The position numbers and the translations under genes are program-made. 10,019 nt of DNA from a virus (lineage: Duplodnaviria; Heunggongvirae; Uroviricota; Caudoviricetes): the IMG/VR virus record IMGVR_UViG_2579778989_000006, one strand, 5' to 3'. Under the pieces are notes generated by a model, which had not been told where the DNA came from, made no database searches, and saw only the letters and a list, made by a program, of their open reading frames with translations. Shown here in pieces: positions 2,343 to 10,019 of the stretch; position 1 is the first letter of the stretch; the number at the start of each line of letters is the position of its first letter.

Positions 2343-2780
2343 GTGAGCCTACCAGAGTTACGCTTACTGATCCATGAAAATACTGTAAAAATAAACAGTG
2401 TTGATTTAATCAACGCTGATTGCCTGCATTTTATTCAGTCCCTGCCTGATGATTCCATTGACCTGATTGTTACCGATCCGCCGTATTTCAAAGTGAAACC
2501 CGAGGGCTGGGACAATCAGTGGAAGGGCGACGATGATTACCTGAAGTGGCTGGACCAGTGTCTGGCTCAGTTCTGGCGGGAGCTGAAACCTGCTGGAAGT
2601 CTTTACCTGTTCTGTGGACATCGCCTGGCATCTGATATTGAAATCGTGATGCGTAAACGTTTTAATGTGCTGAACCATATCATATGGGCGAAGCCGTTCA
2701 GACCTTGGAGCGCATGCTGTTGTTGCTCACTGGTATTACGAACGGTTTGCTCACGGGGATGTACACATATTAATTGTTGA
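2343..2780 (+). pseudogene. N6-adenine DNA methyltransferase, 5' remnant (truncated)
   Basis: N-terminal part has the catalytic motif IV DPPY (IDLIVTDPPYF) and conserved flanks (SVDLINADCLHFIQSLPDDS, LKPAGSLYLFCG), but the ORF ends after 145 codons in a Cys-rich tail (SACCCCSLVLRTVCSRGCTHINC) with no FxGxG AdoMet-binding motif. Base composition switches to strongly AT-rich at ~2765. Functional methylases of this class are roughly twice this length. Confidence 0.7.
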
Positions 2781-2788
2781 TGTTAATA

Positions 2789-3130
2789 TTACGTCATGTT
2801 ATTAATACAAAATTGCAACGCATCATTCAAAGTATTATAATTATCATTTGTTGCATTTATTATGCCAACATTCCTTGTTGGTCTTCCTTCCGTTGAATAT
2901 TCTATCCAGAATGAGCCGGTGTATTTTGACATTCTATATGTTGCGAATTCTTTTGCATTAATTGGTGGTTTGGTGCCGTTGAGATCCAATATATAACCAC
3001 TTTCTTGAATTGTCTTAGAAAGGCAATTGATTATTTCATTTGTCGATATTTCACTGTCGATTTGAGGATGATTCACAATTAGCCCCATGCAGAGGATGCT
3101 TGAAATTATTATAAAAATATTTTTTATCAT
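2789..3130 (-). CDS. Hypothetical 113-aa protein with N-terminal signal peptide or membrane anchor, on an AT-rich island
   Basis: Minus-strand ORF in a markedly AT-rich segment. N-terminus MIKNIFIIISSILCMGLIVNHP is a hydrophobic signal or anchor sequence; mature part is Asn/Thr/Ile-rich with two Cys (possible disulfide). Opposite orientation to the surrounding phage late genes; no strong Shine-Dalgarno. Not recognised as any known family. Confidence 0.55.
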   Translation of the reverse strand: MIKNIFIIISSILCMGLIVNHPQIDSEISTNEIINCLSKTIQESGYILDLNGTKPPINAKEFATYRMSKYTGSFWIEYSTEGRPTRNVGIINATNDNYNTLNDALQFCINNMT

Positions 3131-3402
3131 GATGTCTGTTTTTGTGAACTTTTAGATAGAATGTCTGCTGTGGAGATATGTATACCTCTTGTGCTCATTT
3201 ATTTCAATAGATAGTTGAGCACTCATTGTGCTAATGGAAGAAGTTTTTTAATATGGAGTATCATCAAAATCACACAATAGTGATTAATATTGCTATTAGA
3301 TAAAGAAGTATCGCTAACTTTGATTTTGTTGAATTTGTTTTTAATAAAAGTTAGTGTGGTTTATATAGCAGGCATATGCATGCTGTTTTTAAAGAAACTT
3401 AT

Positions 3403-3477
3403 TGCCCCTTTAGCCCTAATGGTCAGAGCGAGAGGTTAATAACCGCCAGGTCGCCGGTTCAAACATGGCAGGGGCAC
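3403..3477 (+). tRNA. tRNA-like element, probably a degenerate tRNA pseudogene (tRNA-Ile2/LAU-like body)
   Basis: Perfect 7-bp acceptor stem (TGCCCCT 3403-3409 with AGGGGCA 3470-3476) and a TTCAAAC T-loop, but the D stem and anticodon stem have multiple mismatches, the anticodon loop is TTAATAA, and no CCA is encoded (CGAA follows). Overall resembles the E. coli tRNA-Ile(LAU) gene as I recall it. Confidence 0.35.
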
Positions 3478-3480
3478 GAA

Positions 3481-3557
3481 GCGCTGTTAGCTCAGTTGGA
3501 CAGAGCAATTGCCTTCTAAGCAATCGGTCACTGGTTCGAATCCAGTATGGCGCACCA
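3481..3557 (+). tRNA. tRNA-Arg (anticodon UCU)
   Basis: Manual cloverleaf: acceptor GCGCTGT/ATGGCGC (two G-U pairs), D arm GCTC-AGTTGGACA-GAGC, anticodon arm ATTGC-CTTCTAA-GCAAT (anticodon TCT), variable loop CGGTC, T arm ACTGG-TTCGAAT-CCAGT, discriminator A and encoded CCA. 77 nt. Confidence 0.85.
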
Positions 3558-3558
3558 T

Positions 3559-3633
<75 letters not shown>

Positions 3634-4110
3634 TAGAGGATTATGGGACAGTATAGTGAGCATTTTTCTGCGTTACTTTTCATCGGTAAAAATAAGCATA
3701 CAACAACTATTTATGCTGGCATTAGCTATGATAGTTATTGGTTTTCTCGGAATGTGTTTATTTGTTTACTATATTCTTATCGATAACTGATATTTTTGAT
3801 ATGAATACGGAGTGGTACAAACAAAAATATGAATTCGCTATGGAATCAGGATGTGTAATAAAAATAATAGTCACTAAGTTATAGTTTTTTTTAAAATGTT
3901 AAAAACATCACATTTCATTATGTTGGGCACTGGAGAATACCCAGTCGTTTTGTTAAAAATAATTACGCATGGTGAATCCCCCTAAGCGGAGGGGCAATCA
4001 GCAACTGGTGTTTTGTCACCGACCCTTATCCTTTCTGTGCGGGTTCAGGTGCTGATACTGAACTCACCGGGAGGCACCCGGCACCATGCAAAATTGTCTA
4101 CACTACCACT

Positions 4111-4140
4111 GTAAAAAGCCCCTCTCCGGAGGGGCTTTTC
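4111..4140. terminator. Bidirectional rho-independent terminator hairpin
   Basis: GCCCCTC (4118-4124), loop TCCG, GAGGGGC (4129-4135); A-tract upstream (4113-4117) and T-tract downstream (4136-4139). Confidence 0.6.
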
Positions 4141-4239
4141 TATGGGCAAAAAAAAGCCCGCAGTGAGTGGCGGGCGGGTCGCATGAATATACATCAGGTA
4201 TTTTTATTATCGTGTTCTGATTTTTACCATCTGTGATAA

Positions 4240-8658: not shown

Positions 8659-9126
8659 ATGAACCGCGTACTGTGCGTGGTCATCATTGCCCTGCTGGTG
8701 GCCTGTGGTGCGCTTAGTCTGGGGCTGAATCATTACCGTGATAACGCCATAACCTACAAAGAGCAGCGCGATAAAAAAGTCAGTGAGCTGGAGCTGGCAA
8801 ATGCAACCATTACTGATATGCAGCAGCGCCAGCGTGATGTTGCTGCACTTGATGCCAGATACTCGAGGGAATTAGCCGATGCGAGAGCTGAAAATGAAAC
8901 TCTTCGCGCTGACGTTGCCGCTGGTCACCGCAGCCTGCGGATCAACGCCACCTGTCCAGGTCCCGTGCGTGAAGCCACCGGCACCGCCCGCGTGGATAAT
9001 GCAACCGGCCCCCAACTGGCAGACACCGTTACACGGGATTATTTCACCCTCAGAGAGCGGCTGATGACGATGCAGAAGCAACTGGAAGGGGCACAGGACT
9101 ATATCCGCACTCAGTGCCTGAAATAA
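8659..9126 (+). CDS. Rz: Rz i-spanin (inner-membrane spanin subunit)
   Basis: 155-aa ORF with N-terminal TM anchor (VLCVVIIALLVACGALSLGL), coiled-coil middle, and an embedded +1-frame lipoprotein gene, the defining Rz/Rz1 architecture. Confidence 0.85.
   Translation: MNRVLCVVIIALLVACGALSLGLNHYRDNAITYKEQRDKKVSELELANATITDMQQRQRDVAALDARYSRELADARAENETLRADVAAGHRSLRINATCPGPVREATGTARVDNATGPQLADTVTRDYFTLRERLMTMQKQLEGAQDYIRTQCLK
8879..9064 (+). CDS. Rz1: Rz1 o-spanin (outer-membrane lipoprotein), embedded in Rz in the +1 frame
   Basis: ORF wholly inside Rz in another frame; signal peptide with lipobox-like LVTAAC followed by a Pro-rich mature region (CVKPPAPPAWIMQPAPNWQTPLHGIISPSESG) nearly matching lambda Rz1 as I recall it. 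Start may be ATG 8879 (GAGGGA Shine-Dalgarno) or ATG 8894. Confidence 0.8.
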   Translation: MRELKMKLFALTLPLVTAACGSTPPVQVPCVKPPAPPAWIMQPAPNWQTPLHGIISPSESG

Positions 9127-9154
9127 GTTTTGCTGATGCGCGGTATTGTCGCCG

Positions 9155-9219
9155 TATCCCCGCATTAACAGAGACCGCAGCCCGACAGGGAGACTCCTCT
9201 GCGCGAGTGTGCGGGGATA
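9155..9219. repeat. Perfect 10-bp inverted repeat (TATCCCCGCA / TGCGGGGATA) with 45-bp spacer downstream of Rz
   Basis: TATCCCCGCA at 9155-9164 and its exact reverse complement at 9210-9219, in a GC-rich noncoding stretch between the lysis cassette and the AT-rich distal region. Confidence 0.5.
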
Positions 9220-9476
9220 ATCAAAAACGATACACACCGGGGTTTACCGCGTTAACGGAGCGCGGCGTTGTCCCCTCATAGTCGCCTGTCCGGTGCGATG
9301 GTGGAAGAAGCCGGATGTTTATCACTATTAATTGATGACACAGAAATGGATTCATTGAATTTCAGCACGTTTTTGTATTCGTGTTATTGAACATCTGTTT
9401 ATTTTACTTTTAACATATTGATAATAAAAAGAGCTGTAAATCTTTAGATGAGTCGATTTTGTCCGGGGAAGTTCAA

Positions 9477-9620
9477 ATGGATTTTATGCTGACGGTTTCT
9501 GGTGTGGTTATCCTGTCCATTGCTTATACTGCAGATAAATATGGCTGCCATTTGTTATCACGTATTGGCGCTTATTGTTCGTTGATGCTGATTTTCTCGT
9601 CGCTTTTTTTTGAGTAAGTT
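9477..9620 (+). CDS. Candidate 47-aa membrane micro-protein
   Basis: ATG 9477 with GGGGAAG Shine-Dalgarno ~7 nt upstream; product MDFMLTVSGVVILSIAYTADKYGCHLLSRIGAYCSLMLIFSSLFFE has two hydrophobic stretches. Below track size cutoff; AT-rich context. Confidence 0.3.
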
Positions 9621-9749
9621 ATATTAATTATAACAAATAATTTTCTGTGTTATTTTTTCAGGCTATCCCGTCAGAGGGGAAGCCTGTACTGCCAGGGAGC
9701 GAATGGAAAACTGATGTGTCCGGTAACTGCGTGTTCTGTGAACACCATG

Positions 9750-9935
9750 TTACTTAATTATGTAATTCATACCCGAACTCTCTGTTGACAGCCTTCTTCT
9801 GCAGGCTTCAATAACCCACGCTGAAAAGTTTCCTGAACCTTTCAGATCAAGAGCGATGTTAATTTGTTCAATCATCTGGTTTGGAAATCGGATGTTGCGG
9901 GTTGTTGTTCTGCGCGTTCTGTTTTTTGATGACAT
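9750..9935 (-). CDS. Small YlcI/DUF3950-like protein, probable ribbon-helix-helix-type DNA-binding protein
   Basis: 61-aa minus-strand ORF with GGGGAAA Shine-Dalgarno ~8 nt upstream of the start. Product MSSKNRTRRTTTRNIRFPNQMIEQINIALDLKGSGNFSAWVIEACRRRL... has a basic N-terminus then a beta-strand/helix pattern like Arc/CopG folds. Resembles the ylcI-type small proteins found distal to lysis genes in E. coli cryptic prophages (from memory). Confidence 0.5.
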   Translation of the reverse strand: MSSKNRTRRTTTRNIRFPNQMIEQINIALDLKGSGNFSAWVIEACRRRLSTESSGMNYIIK

Positions 9936-10019
9936 AATGTTTCCCCATATTCAGTGTTGCTGATTTGTATTATCAGAAGTTGCTTTTACGTTAATTTGAC
10001 GCAGATCAATTAATACGAT

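What the first reader, a model, noticed from the sequence alone, without database searches (positions are those of the whole stretch)
9300..10019. AT-rich distal segment with a minus-strand YlcI/DUF3950-like RHH gene and a candidate 47-aa membrane peptide
After the spanins the sequence becomes AT-rich and carries a small basic RHH-like protein gene on the minus strand (9750-9935) and, upstream on the plus strand, a 47-codon ORF with two hydrophobic stretches and a reasonable Shine-Dalgarno (9477-9620). No bor gene is present. Small RHH regulators next to small membrane proteins can be minimal toxin-antitoxin or exclusion modules, although here the genes are convergent rather than in an operon.
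Basis: partly seen in the sequence, partly recalled or inferred. Interest (0 to 1): 0.35.

Follow-up and report, generated by a model that had tools for sequence, protein, structure and literature searches.

The report
Lambdoid prophage accessory genes before cos
The end of this window is the ordinary accessory-gene slot of a lambda-like E. coli prophage, holding a known but uncharacterised small DNA-binding-type gene (ylcI) and an independent, E. coli-only small membrane-protein gene, and the two are not a toxin-antitoxin pair.

Summary
Both ORFs exist as described. ylcI is 9750-9935 on the minus strand (61 aa). Both are identical to catalogued RefSeq proteins: WP_000347013.1 'hypothetical protein' and WP_001329960.1 'YlcI/YnfO family protein'. 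The region is the right-end accessory slot of a lambdoid prophage, between Rz/Rz1 and cos/terminase; cosN lies about 125 bp past the window end. YlcI passes the Pfam DUF3950 and NCBIfam cut-offs, is under purifying selection, and is predicted RHH-like. It is present in 77% of complete E. coli genomes and sits intact but unannotated in phage lambda itself. It always reads antisense to the late operon, and no function has been published for it. The 46-aa ORF is found only in E. coli, in 13.5% of genomes and beside about 8% of ylcI copies. It lies in a young, low-diversity AT-rich insert and shows modest coding constraint (dN/dS about 0.3; permutation P = 0.013). It also occurs without any ylcI. 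The two genes are convergent, independently distributed and match no toxin, antitoxin or defence family, so the TA/exclusion-module reading is not supported. This is an ordinary feature of low interest.

The parts
8659..9126 (+). Rz i-spanin gene, with Rz1 embedded at 8879-9064. This is the last gene of the lysis cassette and the left boundary of the accessory slot.
   Evidence: ORF list; annotated 'lysis protein' in the 99.9%-identical O104:H4 prophage.
9127..9299 (.). GC-rich post-Rz segment. It is a remnant of the ancestral lambda arrangement with bor lost.
   Evidence: 9154-9252 is 80-81% identical to lambda 46885-46981 (bor-lambdap78 intergenic DNA) and to DLP12. It is highly polymorphic, with 21% variable sites among 45 distinct copies.
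9300..9749 (.). AT-rich cargo insert that carries the small ORF.
   Evidence: GC 0.35-0.41. Present in 734 of 5,426 E. coli genomes and in only 1 of 209 matching phage records. Only about 5% of sites vary, against 17-21% in the flanks. The cassette, with homology over 9137-9725, also occurs without ylcI.
9395..9432 (.). Most conserved stretch of the insert, upstream of the small ORF. It contains the window's only IHF core consensus match (TATCAATATGTTA, 9411-9423, minus strand). Its role is unknown.
   Evidence: Identical between copies that are 81% identical overall, with 1 variable site in 38. IHF pattern: but 38% of shuffles also give at least one match. The consensus scan found no plus-strand sigma-70 promoter here.
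9465..9471 (+). Shine-Dalgarno sequence (GGGGAAG) of the small ORF.
   Evidence: Read from the sequence; conserved in the 81% copy.
9477..9617 (+). 46-aa ORF identical to WP_000347013.1 'hypothetical protein'. It is predicted to form a two-segment hydrophobic hairpin and reads in the sense of the late operon.
   Evidence: Only 13-16 protein clusters, all E. coli, among 5.8 billion proteins. Four allelic lineages (71-100% identity) all keep 45-46 codons, with dN/dS 0.25-0.31. Observed 16 synonymous, 15 non-synonymous and 0 stop changes against 9.8 +/- 2.5 synonymous expected, P = 0.013. No family match.
9618..9749 (.). Spacer between the two convergent genes. It holds no convincing intrinsic terminator on either strand.
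   Evidence: Only a weak 6-bp hairpin at 9731-9745. The fold z-score is -1.68, which is not significant. The spacer is poorly conserved in the 81% copy.
9750..9935 (-). ylcI-type gene (61 aa) identical to WP_001329960.1. It encodes a predicted RHH-like DNA-binding protein and reads antisense to the late operon.
   Evidence: Pfam DUF3950 and NCBIfam NF041551 above their cut-offs. dN/dS 0.14, with differences by codon position 5/8/26. AF2 model with pLDDT 73.9 and helices at 19-32 and 37-55. All 11 Foldseek PDB hits are RHH proteins, but E >= 3.
9940..9946 (-). Shine-Dalgarno sequence of ylcI (GGGGAAA on the minus strand).
   Evidence: Read from the sequence.
9969..9974 (-). Best -10 candidate for a ylcI promoter (GATAAT on the minus strand). 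This is inferred only.
   Evidence: My reading. The consensus scan did not report a full promoter here because the -35 is poor.
9997..10019 (.). First 23 bp of a 44-bp near-invariant block that continues past the window end. The block holds interleaved inverted repeats TGACGCAG/CTGCGTCA and ATCAATTA/TAATTGAT. It is a candidate operator or a cos-proximal element.
   Evidence: Invariant in lambda, DLP12, Qin, SHP24 and this prophage. Inverted repeats I4 and I9. 2.3% variable sites against 9-21% in the adjacent ylcI 5' region. Occurs once in the window. Absent from HNH-type phages that still keep ylcI.

Best explanation
The segment is the right-end accessory ('moron') slot of a lambda-like E. coli prophage, between the lysis cassette and cos. 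It holds two independent units.

(1) ylcI is a long-standing resident of this slot. It is present even in phage lambda, where the reference record leaves it unannotated. It encodes a ~60-aa protein with an Arc-like ribbon-helix-helix layout: a basic N-terminal arm, an N-I-R-F-P strand, helix A, a G-S-G-N-F-S turn and helix B. Because it reads antisense to the Q-dependent late transcript, I infer that it is expressed from its own promoter in the resident prophage and acts as a small dimeric DNA-binding regulator. It probably autoregulates through inverted repeats upstream of its start codon.

(2) The 46-aa ORF is a young, E. coli-restricted cargo gene for a small inner-membrane hairpin protein. 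It has a good SD but no recognisable sigma-70 promoter of its own, and it lies in the sense orientation just after Rz/Rz1. I therefore infer that it is translated mainly from the late transcript and acts at the cell envelope late in infection, for example in fine-tuning lysis or in exclusion.

Shown: identity, family membership, genomic position, independent distribution of the two genes, and coding constraint. Inferred: DNA binding, autoregulation, timing of expression, membrane location and physiological role.

The overall confidence of 0.7 applies to the structural claim: an ordinary accessory slot holding two independent genes that are not a TA pair. Sub-claims are lower: YlcI as a DNA-binding regulator about 0.6, autoregulation through the upstream repeats about 0.35, the 46-aa ORF as a real gene about 0.75, and its late-envelope role about 0.35.
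For: Context:
- The region is 99.9% identical to a prophage of O104:H4 in which Rz is followed by this ORF, ylcI, cos and terminase.
- The same slot in K-12 DLP12, K-12 Qin and lambda holds different cargo.

YlcI:
- Family matches above the curated cut-offs.
- 11 invariant or near-invariant positions across Enterobacterales homologues.
- dN/dS 0.14.
- An intact lambda copy at 48109-48303, identical to DLP12 YlcI.
- ylcI is found at 9,427 places in 77% of complete E. coli genomes.
- RHH-type secondary structure, and only RHH proteins among the Foldseek hits; a weak PHROG HicB-like RHH hit.
- Strong inverted repeats upstream in 33% of 39 diverged loci against 2% of shuffles, including paired TGT-N4-ACA palindromes, and a near-invariant inverted-repeat block upstream in lambda-type phages.
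- The same antisense-embedded placement in satellites, int-alpA-antA-[YlcI]-primase.
- K-12 ylcI is transcribed and overlaps ybcW convergently (PMC12288877).

Small ORF:
- The frame is kept in four allelic lineages.
- Synonymous excess with P = 0.013, while the other two frames acquire stops.
- SD and start codon are conserved.

Independence:
- About 8% co-occurrence.
- The cassette occurs without ylcI.
- ylcI occurs with other cargo or with none.
Against: - No experiment or published function exists for either gene.
- The RHH assignment is not statistically secure: Foldseek E >= 3, hhalign against Arc E = 0.02 with probability 2%, and no PDB sequence hit.
- No consensus promoter was found for ylcI.
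- The inverted-repeat block is missing in HNH-type phages that keep an intact, constrained ylcI only 41 bp from the HNH gene. The block may therefore serve cos or packaging and not YlcI.
- The coding signal for the small ORF rests on only ~31-39 substitutions, and within the insert the ORF is no more conserved than its non-coding flanks (5.0% against 5.3% variable sites).
- Frameshifted variants of the small ORF exist at low frequency.
Confidence: 0.7

Rival explanations
1. One reading: ylcI and the 46-aa ORF form a minimal toxin-antitoxin or exclusion module, with a membrane toxin controlled by the RHH protein or by the convergent ylcI transcript acting as antisense RNA (a type I-like or excludon arrangement).
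For: The peptide is small and hydrophobic, like type I toxins. There is no terminator between the convergent genes. The analogous K-12 pair ybcW-ylcI is listed as a convergent excludon. In 79 of 79 full-length main-allele copies, ylcI follows the ORF. A Salmonella/Citrobacter branch of the family has a conserved RHH -> small two-TM ORF operon.
Against: The genes are convergent and not in an operon. Only about 8% of ylcI copies have the ORF beside them. The ORF cassette exists without ylcI. ylcI is nearly universal in this slot, so its presence next to the ORF carries no information. Neither product matches any TA or defence family, and no Rfam family matches. The Salmonella small ORF is unrelated to this one.
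Confidence: 0.06
2. The 46-aa ORF is not a gene. The AT-rich insert is non-coding regulatory or structural DNA (for example H-NS- or IHF-bound, or a leftover of recombination), and the ORF is a chance open frame that annotation pipelines have propagated.
For: There are no homologues outside E. coli. The ORF is no better conserved than its flanks within the insert. The best-conserved element is the upstream 36-mer, not the ORF. Keeping the frame free of stops has a 42% probability by chance. There is no promoter consensus. Frameshift variants exist.
Against: There is a synonymous excess in the annotated frame only (P = 0.013). dN/dS is 0.25-0.31 across four lineages, with conservative hydrophobic replacements. 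The SD and ATG are conserved, and the one start-codon variant is ATG to GTG. The T-run length changes at the 3' end alter only the last residues.
Confidence: 0.2
3. YlcI is a packaging accessory factor. It binds the near-invariant cos-proximal block and modulates terminase action or the expression of Nu1/A, which would explain why it is always the last gene before the packaging module.
For: It is adjacent to three packaging module types: Nu1/cos and HNH-TerS, and cf-PICIs that list YlcI together with TerS/TerL (PMC13612085). About 95 bp between ylcI and cosQ are as conserved as cosQ-cosN. One distant homologue (P0206) carries a TerS-like HTH extension.
Against: It is transcribed antisense to the late operon, so it is poorly placed for late expression. 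Satellite and chromosomal homologues have no packaging genes nearby. The inverted-repeat block is absent from HNH-type phages that keep ylcI. From established lambda knowledge, not tested here, minimal cos fragments of about 200 bp that lack this region are packaged.
Confidence: 0.1

Closest known systems
YlcI (DLP12), YnfO (Qin) and the unannotated lambda ORF at 48109-48303; Pfam DUF3950 / NCBIfam NF041551
   Same: About 80-90% identical over residues 1-50. Same position (last gene before cos/Nu1), same orientation (antisense to the late operon) and the same conserved upstream block.
   Different: The C-terminal tail after RRRL differs (STESSGMNYIIK against TSEKRAYTSIKSDEE and a longer tail in YnfO), and so does the downstream cargo: ybcW/ybcV/bor in DLP12 and lambda, ydfO in Qin, and the 46-aa ORF here.
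Arc and Mnt repressors of phage P22 (ribbon-helix-helix / MetJ-Arc superfamily)
   Same: Similar size; an N-(I/L)-R-(F/W)-P strand motif followed by two helices joined by a Gly-containing turn; encoded by a phage. Arc is the top Foldseek hit and aligns over the strand and helix A.
   Different: No significant sequence or fold score. Dimerisation, operators and target genes are unknown. YlcI is not in an immunity region.
bor-type lysogenic-conversion genes (morons) in the Rz-cos interval of lambdoid phages
   Same: Same genomic slot, AT-rich composition and variable presence between otherwise similar phages.
   Different: bor is absent here. Bor is an outer-membrane lipoprotein encoded on the minus strand. 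The 46-aa ORF is on the plus strand, has no lipobox and is unrelated in sequence.
Type I toxins (Hok, Ldr, TisB, Ibs) and small phage exclusion proteins
   Same: Under 60 aa, strongly hydrophobic, with a narrow taxonomic range.
   Different: Two short hydrophobic segments instead of one TM helix. No cognate antisense RNA gene, no structured 5' UTR signal (z = -1.68), and no Rfam, Pfam or PADLOC match. Toxicity is untested.
ybcW-ylcI convergent 'excludon' of E. coli K-12 (ExcludonFinder, PMC12288877)
   Same: A small plus-strand ORF converging on ylcI with a short spacer and no strong terminator.
   Different: YbcW is a hydrophilic 68-aa protein unrelated to the 46-aa ORF. Transcript overlap has not been measured for this prophage.

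Membership tests
YlcI/YnfO family (Pfam PF13132 DUF3950; NCBIfam NF041551) | Score above the curated family cut-offs | tested here: met
   Pfam 67.5 bits against 25; NCBIfam 35.2 bits against 30; phrog_949 E = 9e-32.
YlcI/YnfO family (Pfam PF13132 DUF3950; NCBIfam NF041551) | Conserved core motif K/R-N-I-R-F-P ... N-F-S-A-W-V-I-E-A-C | tested here: met
   All 11 invariant or near-invariant columns are present in the window protein.
YlcI/YnfO family (Pfam PF13132 DUF3950; NCBIfam NF041551) | Lambdoid synteny: last gene before the packaging module, on the strand opposite the late operon | tested here: met
Ribbon-helix-helix (Arc/MetJ) superfamily | N-terminal strand followed by two helices joined by a short Gly-containing turn | tested here: inconclusive
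   AF2 gives helices at 19-32 and 37-55 with an extended segment at residues 14-18 (pLDDT 73.9). All 11 Foldseek hits are RHH proteins, but E = 3-10. hhalign against Arc gives E = 0.02 with probability 2%. There is no PDB sequence hit.
Ribbon-helix-helix (Arc/MetJ) superfamily | Obligate intertwined dimer that binds repeated DNA half-sites | not testable with these tools
   Only indirect evidence: inverted repeats are enriched upstream of family members.
Type II toxin-antitoxin system (RHH antitoxin plus toxin) | Antitoxin and toxin are adjacent, co-directional and co-transcribed | tested here: not met
   The genes are convergent, and there is no co-directional ORF downstream of ylcI.
Type II toxin-antitoxin system (RHH antitoxin plus toxin) | The partner gene is conserved with the antitoxin across loci | tested here: not met
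   About 8% co-occurrence. The ORF is found without ylcI. Neighbours are diverse and no toxin family recurs among them.
Type II toxin-antitoxin system (RHH antitoxin plus toxin) | The toxin belongs to a recognised toxin family | tested here: not met
   No Pfam, NCBIfam, PHROG or PADLOC hit for the 46-aa product.
Type I toxin-antitoxin system | Small hydrophobic toxin peptide of under 60 aa | tested here: met
   46 aa, mean hydropathy 1.21, two hydrophobic segments. Toxicity itself is not testable here.
Type I toxin-antitoxin system | A dedicated antisense RNA that overlaps the toxin mRNA | tested here: inconclusive
   No Rfam match in 9300-10019. One weak minus-strand promoter-like site lies at 9440-9412. 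A convergent ylcI transcript could overlap the ORF, but this has not been measured.
Bor lipoprotein | A Bor homologue encoded between Rz and cos | tested here: not met
   tblastn with lambda Bor gives a best E of 4.
Known anti-phage defence systems (PADLOC) | A match to any defence-system protein model | tested here: not met
   No hits at E <= 1 for either protein.

The most novel reading that the evidence does not exclude
The YlcI family is an overlooked class of RHH regulators that sit antisense inside the main inducible operon of Enterobacterales mobile elements. Examples are the late operon of lambda itself, where the gene is unannotated, and the alpA-primase operon of P4-like/PICI satellites. 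In this reading, YlcI binds paired palindromes and its convergent transcription gates read-through. In this prophage that would also silence a membrane-active 46-aa peptide until Q-dependent late transcription overrides it.
Probability: 0.08. Interest if true: 0.55.

Novelty: already known. Interest (0 to 1): 0.2.

Why it matters
As found, it matters little. Both genes are already catalogued, and the region is a typical variable accessory slot of lambdoid prophages.

Its modest value is as a pointer. YlcI is carried by three quarters of complete E. coli genomes and by phage lambda itself, yet no function has been published for it, and the lambda reference record does not annotate it. A simple lambda ylcI knockout together with a DNA-binding assay would settle whether the best-studied phage still hides a regulator next to cos.

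The 46-aa ORF adds one more candidate to the poorly explored set of prophage-encoded small membrane proteins in pathogenic E. coli, including O104:H4, O157:H7 and O145.

Tried and rejected
- **YbcW homology:** the 46-aa ORF occupies the same slot as K-12 ybcW, but YbcW is hydrophilic and unrelated.
- **Distant relatives of the 46-aa ORF:** the single-sequence search and the profile search of 5.8 billion proteins, plus the viral-contig scan, found only E. coli copies.
- **Pasteurella phage 'transcriptional repressor' hit:** the YlcI-like match lies on the strand opposite the annotated gene, so the name does not apply to it.
- **YlcI 'homologues' at ~90% identity in Streptomyces, Cohnella, Pseudomonas and similar genomes:** judged to be lambda control-DNA contamination, not real family members.
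- **Long antisense ORFs over satellite YlcI-like genes:** low-complexity and judged spurious.
- **Operator motif elsewhere in the window or in HNH-type phages:** not found.
- **Intrinsic terminator between the convergent genes:** none convincing.
- **Sigma-70 promoters for either gene:** no consensus hit on the correct strand.
- **IHF site in the invariant 36-mer:** it is the only consensus match in the window, but the count is not significant.
- **Lambda ribosome-profiling paper (Liu et al. 2013):** not held in the library.
- **Papers mentioning ylcI:** only incidental variant calls, with no functional data.
Full report
**Observation.**
- GC falls from 0.57 at 9001-9300 to 0.35-0.41 across 9301-9900.
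- A 61-aa ORF lies on the minus strand at 9750-9935.
- A hydrophobic ORF lies on the plus strand from ATG 9477 to the TAA at 9615-9617.
- A GGGGA Shine-Dalgarno sits seven bases before that ATG.
- The minus-strand product matches Pfam DUF3950 at 67.5 bits against a cut-off of 25, and NCBIfam YlcI_YnfO_N at 35.2 bits against 30.
- No bor is present. tblastn with lambda Bor, and with seven other cargo proteins known from this slot in lambda, DLP12 and Qin, gives nothing below E = 1.

**Where the region sits.**
- The 890 bases from 9130 to the window end are 99.9% identical to prophages in many E. coli genomes, among them O104:H4 strain 2009EL-2071.
- In that genome the gene order is Q antiterminator, tRNAs, SASA esterase, holin, lysozyme, Rz, a 46-aa 'hypothetical protein' (WP_000347013.1), 'YlcI/YnfO family protein' (WP_001329960.1), then terminase small and large subunits.
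- cosN (GGGCGGCGACCT) lies about 125 bp beyond the window end, preceded by cosQ (GGGTCCT).
- The window's own ORFs fit the same picture: DUF968, RusA, Q, a truncated methylase, two tRNAs, SASA/DUF6645, DUF826, lysozyme and Rz/Rz1.
- The finding therefore covers the interval between the lysis cassette and cos of a lambda-like prophage.
- Both exact protein sequences are already in public collections, each on about a thousand or more contigs.

**YlcI.**
- K-12 has two paralogues, ylcI in DLP12 and ynfO in Qin. Both are the last gene before the Nu1 homologue and both read away from it.
- Phage lambda's reference record NC_001416 holds an intact 64-aa ORF at 48109-48303 (minus strand). It is identical to DLP12 YlcI and carries no annotation.
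- ylcI DNA is found at 9,427 places in 4,159 of 5,426 complete E. coli genomes.
- The window copy and an 81%-identical copy give dN/dS 0.14, with 26 of 39 differences at third codon positions. The gene is real and constrained.
- Most protein change lies in the C-terminal tail after RRRL. That tail is also where different cargo segments are joined.
- An exhaustive search of 1.84 billion cluster representatives finds only 106 clusters. After the artefacts described under 'Side observations' are removed, the genuine diverged relatives are all Enterobacterales.
- These relatives share I-R-F-P-x-x-L-I-E-x-I and N-F-S-A-W-V-x-E/D-A-C, with 11 invariant or near-invariant positions.

**Is YlcI an RHH protein?**
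- The alignment-based AlphaFold model (pLDDT 73.9) has an extended segment followed by helices at 19-32 and 37-55.
- All eleven Foldseek matches in the PDB are RHH proteins: Arc, CdbA, NikR, omega, AtaR2, VapB and a Vibrio RHH factor. However, the E-values are 3-10.
- A profile comparison aligns N-I-R-F-P to Arc's N-L-R-W-P at E = 0.02 with probability 2%.
- PHROGs gives a weak HicB-like RHH hit, and there are no PDB sequence hits.
- I treat RHH as the best reading. It is supported qualitatively and is not proven.

**What YlcI may do.**
- No paper in the library reports a function.
- ExcludonFinder lists ybcW-ylcI as a convergent overlapping transcript pair seen in at least half of the K-12 RNA-seq samples analysed. 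This shows that ylcI is transcribed in a resident prophage.
- The gene lies antisense to the late operon. From established lambda biology, that orientation is typical of lysogen-expressed genes such as bor.
- Upstream, a 44-bp block starting at window 9997 is invariant in lambda, DLP12, Qin, SHP24 and this prophage. It holds the interleaved inverted repeats TGACGCAG/CTGCGTCA and ATCAATTA/TAATTGAT.
- Among 13 distinct lambda-type copies this block has 2.3% variable sites, against 8.8% in the ylcI 5' coding part, 21% in the 5' UTR and 12.6% in cosB.
- In 39 diverged family loci, strong upstream inverted repeats occur in 33% against 2% of shuffles. Satellite-type loci show two copies of a TGT-N4-ACA palindrome about 24 bp apart, 85-107 bp before the start codon. 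This pattern fits an autoregulated RHH repressor.
- There is a clear caveat. O157/O145-type phages keep an intact, constrained ylcI, but homology breaks just past its start codon, an HNH gene begins 41 bp away, and the inverted-repeat motifs are absent. The block could therefore belong to cos-proximal function and not to YlcI.
- In satellites the layout is int, alpA, antA, a gap, small ORFs, primase-helicase, and the YlcI-like gene lies in the gap on the opposite strand. This is again antisense within the main operon.

**The 46-aa ORF.**
- It matches no Pfam, NCBIfam, PHROG or PADLOC model.
- Single-sequence and profile searches of 5.8 billion proteins return only 13-16 clusters, all from E. 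coli.
- The segment 9380-9700 occurs in 734 of 5,426 genomes, nearly always above 95% identity, and in only one of 209 matching phage records.
- Among 45 distinct copies, the insert 9300-9749 has about 5% variable sites while the flanks have 17-21%. The insert is therefore young relative to its mosaic surroundings.
- Four allelic lineages (100, 89, 74 and 71% protein identity) all keep 45-46 codons, and pairwise dN/dS between the deep lineages is 0.25-0.31.
- Pooling 24 fixed differences with 7 population variants gives 16 synonymous, 15 non-synonymous and no stop changes. A permutation that preserves the mutation spectrum expects 9.8 +/- 2.5 synonymous changes (P = 0.013). The same changes read in the other frames give 7 and 9 synonymous changes plus stops.
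- Replacements are mostly conservative (V/I, S/A, F/L, M/I), and the SD and start codon are conserved.
- I conclude that it is probably a real gene for a small membrane hairpin protein, at a confidence of roughly 0.75.
- The consensus scan found no plus-strand promoter, so expression from the late transcript is the simplest inference.
- The best-conserved element is a 36-38-bp AT-rich stretch at 9395-9432. It contains the window's only IHF core consensus, but the count is not significant because 38% of shuffles give at least one match.

**Are the two genes a module?** The evidence says no.
- They are convergent, separated by a 132-bp spacer with no convincing terminator.
- Only about 8% of ylcI copies have the ORF beside them.
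- In loci L172 and L173 the ORF cassette (homology over window 9137-9725) is joined to a different packaging module, and no YlcI homologue is detectable in 1.5 kb of flank.
- ylcI is found with ybcW, with ydfO, with other cargo, or directly abutting the post-Rz segment.
- No toxin family recurs among 143 neighbours of diverged homologues.
- The residual case for a functional link rests on possible antisense overlap of the convergent transcripts. I give it about 6%.
- One related observation is worth recording. In Salmonella enterica arizonae and diarizonae (between sopB and pipD in SPI-5) and in Citrobacter amalonaticus, the YlcI-like gene is followed within 13-31 nt by a co-directional 61-62-aa two-TM ORF. 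That ORF is homologous between the genera (27% identity, E = 1e-5) and unrelated to the window's ORF.

**Side observations.**
- About thirty ~90%-identical YlcI 'homologues' lie in unrelated bacteria, on contigs of about 3.5 kb or 48.5 kb. The most likely explanation is lambda control DNA left in the assemblies.
- The same explanation fits the many noisy 3.4-3.5 kb 'ena' variants among the protein hits.

**Verdict.**
- The TA/exclusion-module interpretation is not supported.
- The region is an ordinary, already catalogued accessory slot of a lambdoid prophage.
- What remains open is the function of YlcI, a very widespread small protein that even lambda carries, and of one more small prophage membrane protein. 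Neither question is raised specifically by this window. My interest score is 0.2.

Noticed in passing
L008 2710-2904 (lambda NC_001416 48109-48303, minus strand): The phage lambda reference genome contains an intact 64-aa ylcI ORF, identical to K-12 DLP12 YlcI, about 200 bp from the right cos end. The RefSeq record has no feature there, while other lambda-like records call it a hypothetical protein.
   Followed up: yes
L012-L044, L065, L072; protein hits P0055-P0133: About thirty ~90%-identical YlcI matches lie in Streptomyces, Cohnella, Brevibacillus, Pedobacter, Pseudomonas, an Arcanobacterium 'plasmid' and MAGs. They sit on contigs of about 3.5 kb or 48.5 kb with the match ~200-390 bp from a contig end. 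This looks like lambda spike-in or control DNA contaminating the assemblies, and it inflates the apparent host range and diversity of the family.
   Followed up: partly
L060, L071, L076, L079, L085, L088: 85-107 bp upstream of the YlcI-like start codon: Satellite-type YlcI loci carry two copies of a 10-bp palindrome TGT-N4-ACA (TGTGCGCACA, TGTTTAAACA, TGTATATACA) about 24 bp apart. The arms are conserved and the core varies. These are candidate operators.
   Followed up: partly
L049/L050 3995-4387 (Salmonella enterica arizonae/diarizonae, between sopB and pipD); L073 3980-4393 (Citrobacter amalonaticus): In these loci a YlcI-family gene is followed within 13-31 nt by a co-directional 61-62-aa two-TM ORF. 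That ORF is homologous across the two genera (27% identity, E = 1e-5). This is a conserved RHH plus small membrane protein operon in a non-phage context (SPI-5).
   Followed up: partly
window 9997-10019, continuing to about 10040 (L001 9868-9911): A 44-bp block with interleaved inverted repeats is nearly invariant across lambda-type phages and is as conserved as cosQ-cosN. Together with the next ~50 bp it forms a ~95-bp constrained stretch between ylcI and cosQ whose function is unassigned.
   Followed up: partly
L001 9961-9977 (about window 10090-10106, outside the window): A perfect 8-1-8 palindrome, ATGATAAT-A-ATTATCAT, lies immediately upstream of cosQ. Two plus-strand promoter-like hexamer pairs overlap it and point towards cos/Nu1.
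   Followed up: no
window 9411-9423 (minus strand), inside 9395-9432: The only match to the IHF core consensus WATCAANNNNTTR in the 10-kb window falls in the most conserved stretch of the AT-rich insert. The count alone is not significant, because 38% of shuffles give at least one match.
   Followed up: partly
window 9604-9611 (T8 run at the 3' end of the 46-aa ORF): Length changes in the poly-T tract alter only the C-terminus: ...LFFE here, ...LFF in SHP24, and ...LFFFLSKLY in a 46-member cluster. It is a slippage-prone tract at the gene's end.
   Followed up: partly
L005/L006 2053-2095 (O157/O145-type prophages): In HNH-TerS-type phages, homology to the window ends a few bases past the ylcI start codon and the HNH gene starts 41 bp away. 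The recombination joint between accessory and packaging modules therefore sits exactly at the ylcI 5' end, and any ylcI promoter there must lie inside the HNH gene.
   Followed up: partly
window 2343-3450: A DNA methylase ORF (2343-2780) matches only the first 85 of 221 Pfam positions, so it looks truncated. It is followed by a very AT-rich stretch (GC 0.30-0.36) that holds a 113-aa minus-strand ORF (2789-3130) with no family match.
   Followed up: no
window 3481-3633 and 3937-4147: tRNA-Arg(UCU) and tRNA-Gly(UCC) genes lie downstream of Q, followed by a strong match to the Rfam sRNA family STnc100 (140.8 bits, E = 8e-32). This part of the window is not collinear with the O104:H4 locus used for the 3' end.
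   Followed up: no
P0206 (129 aa) and P0223 (175 aa): Two distant YlcI-family proteins carry C-terminal extensions that look like HTH domains. The one in P0206 resembles the N-terminal DNA-binding motif of small terminase subunits. I did not check whether these are true fusions or gene-calling artefacts.
   Followed up: no
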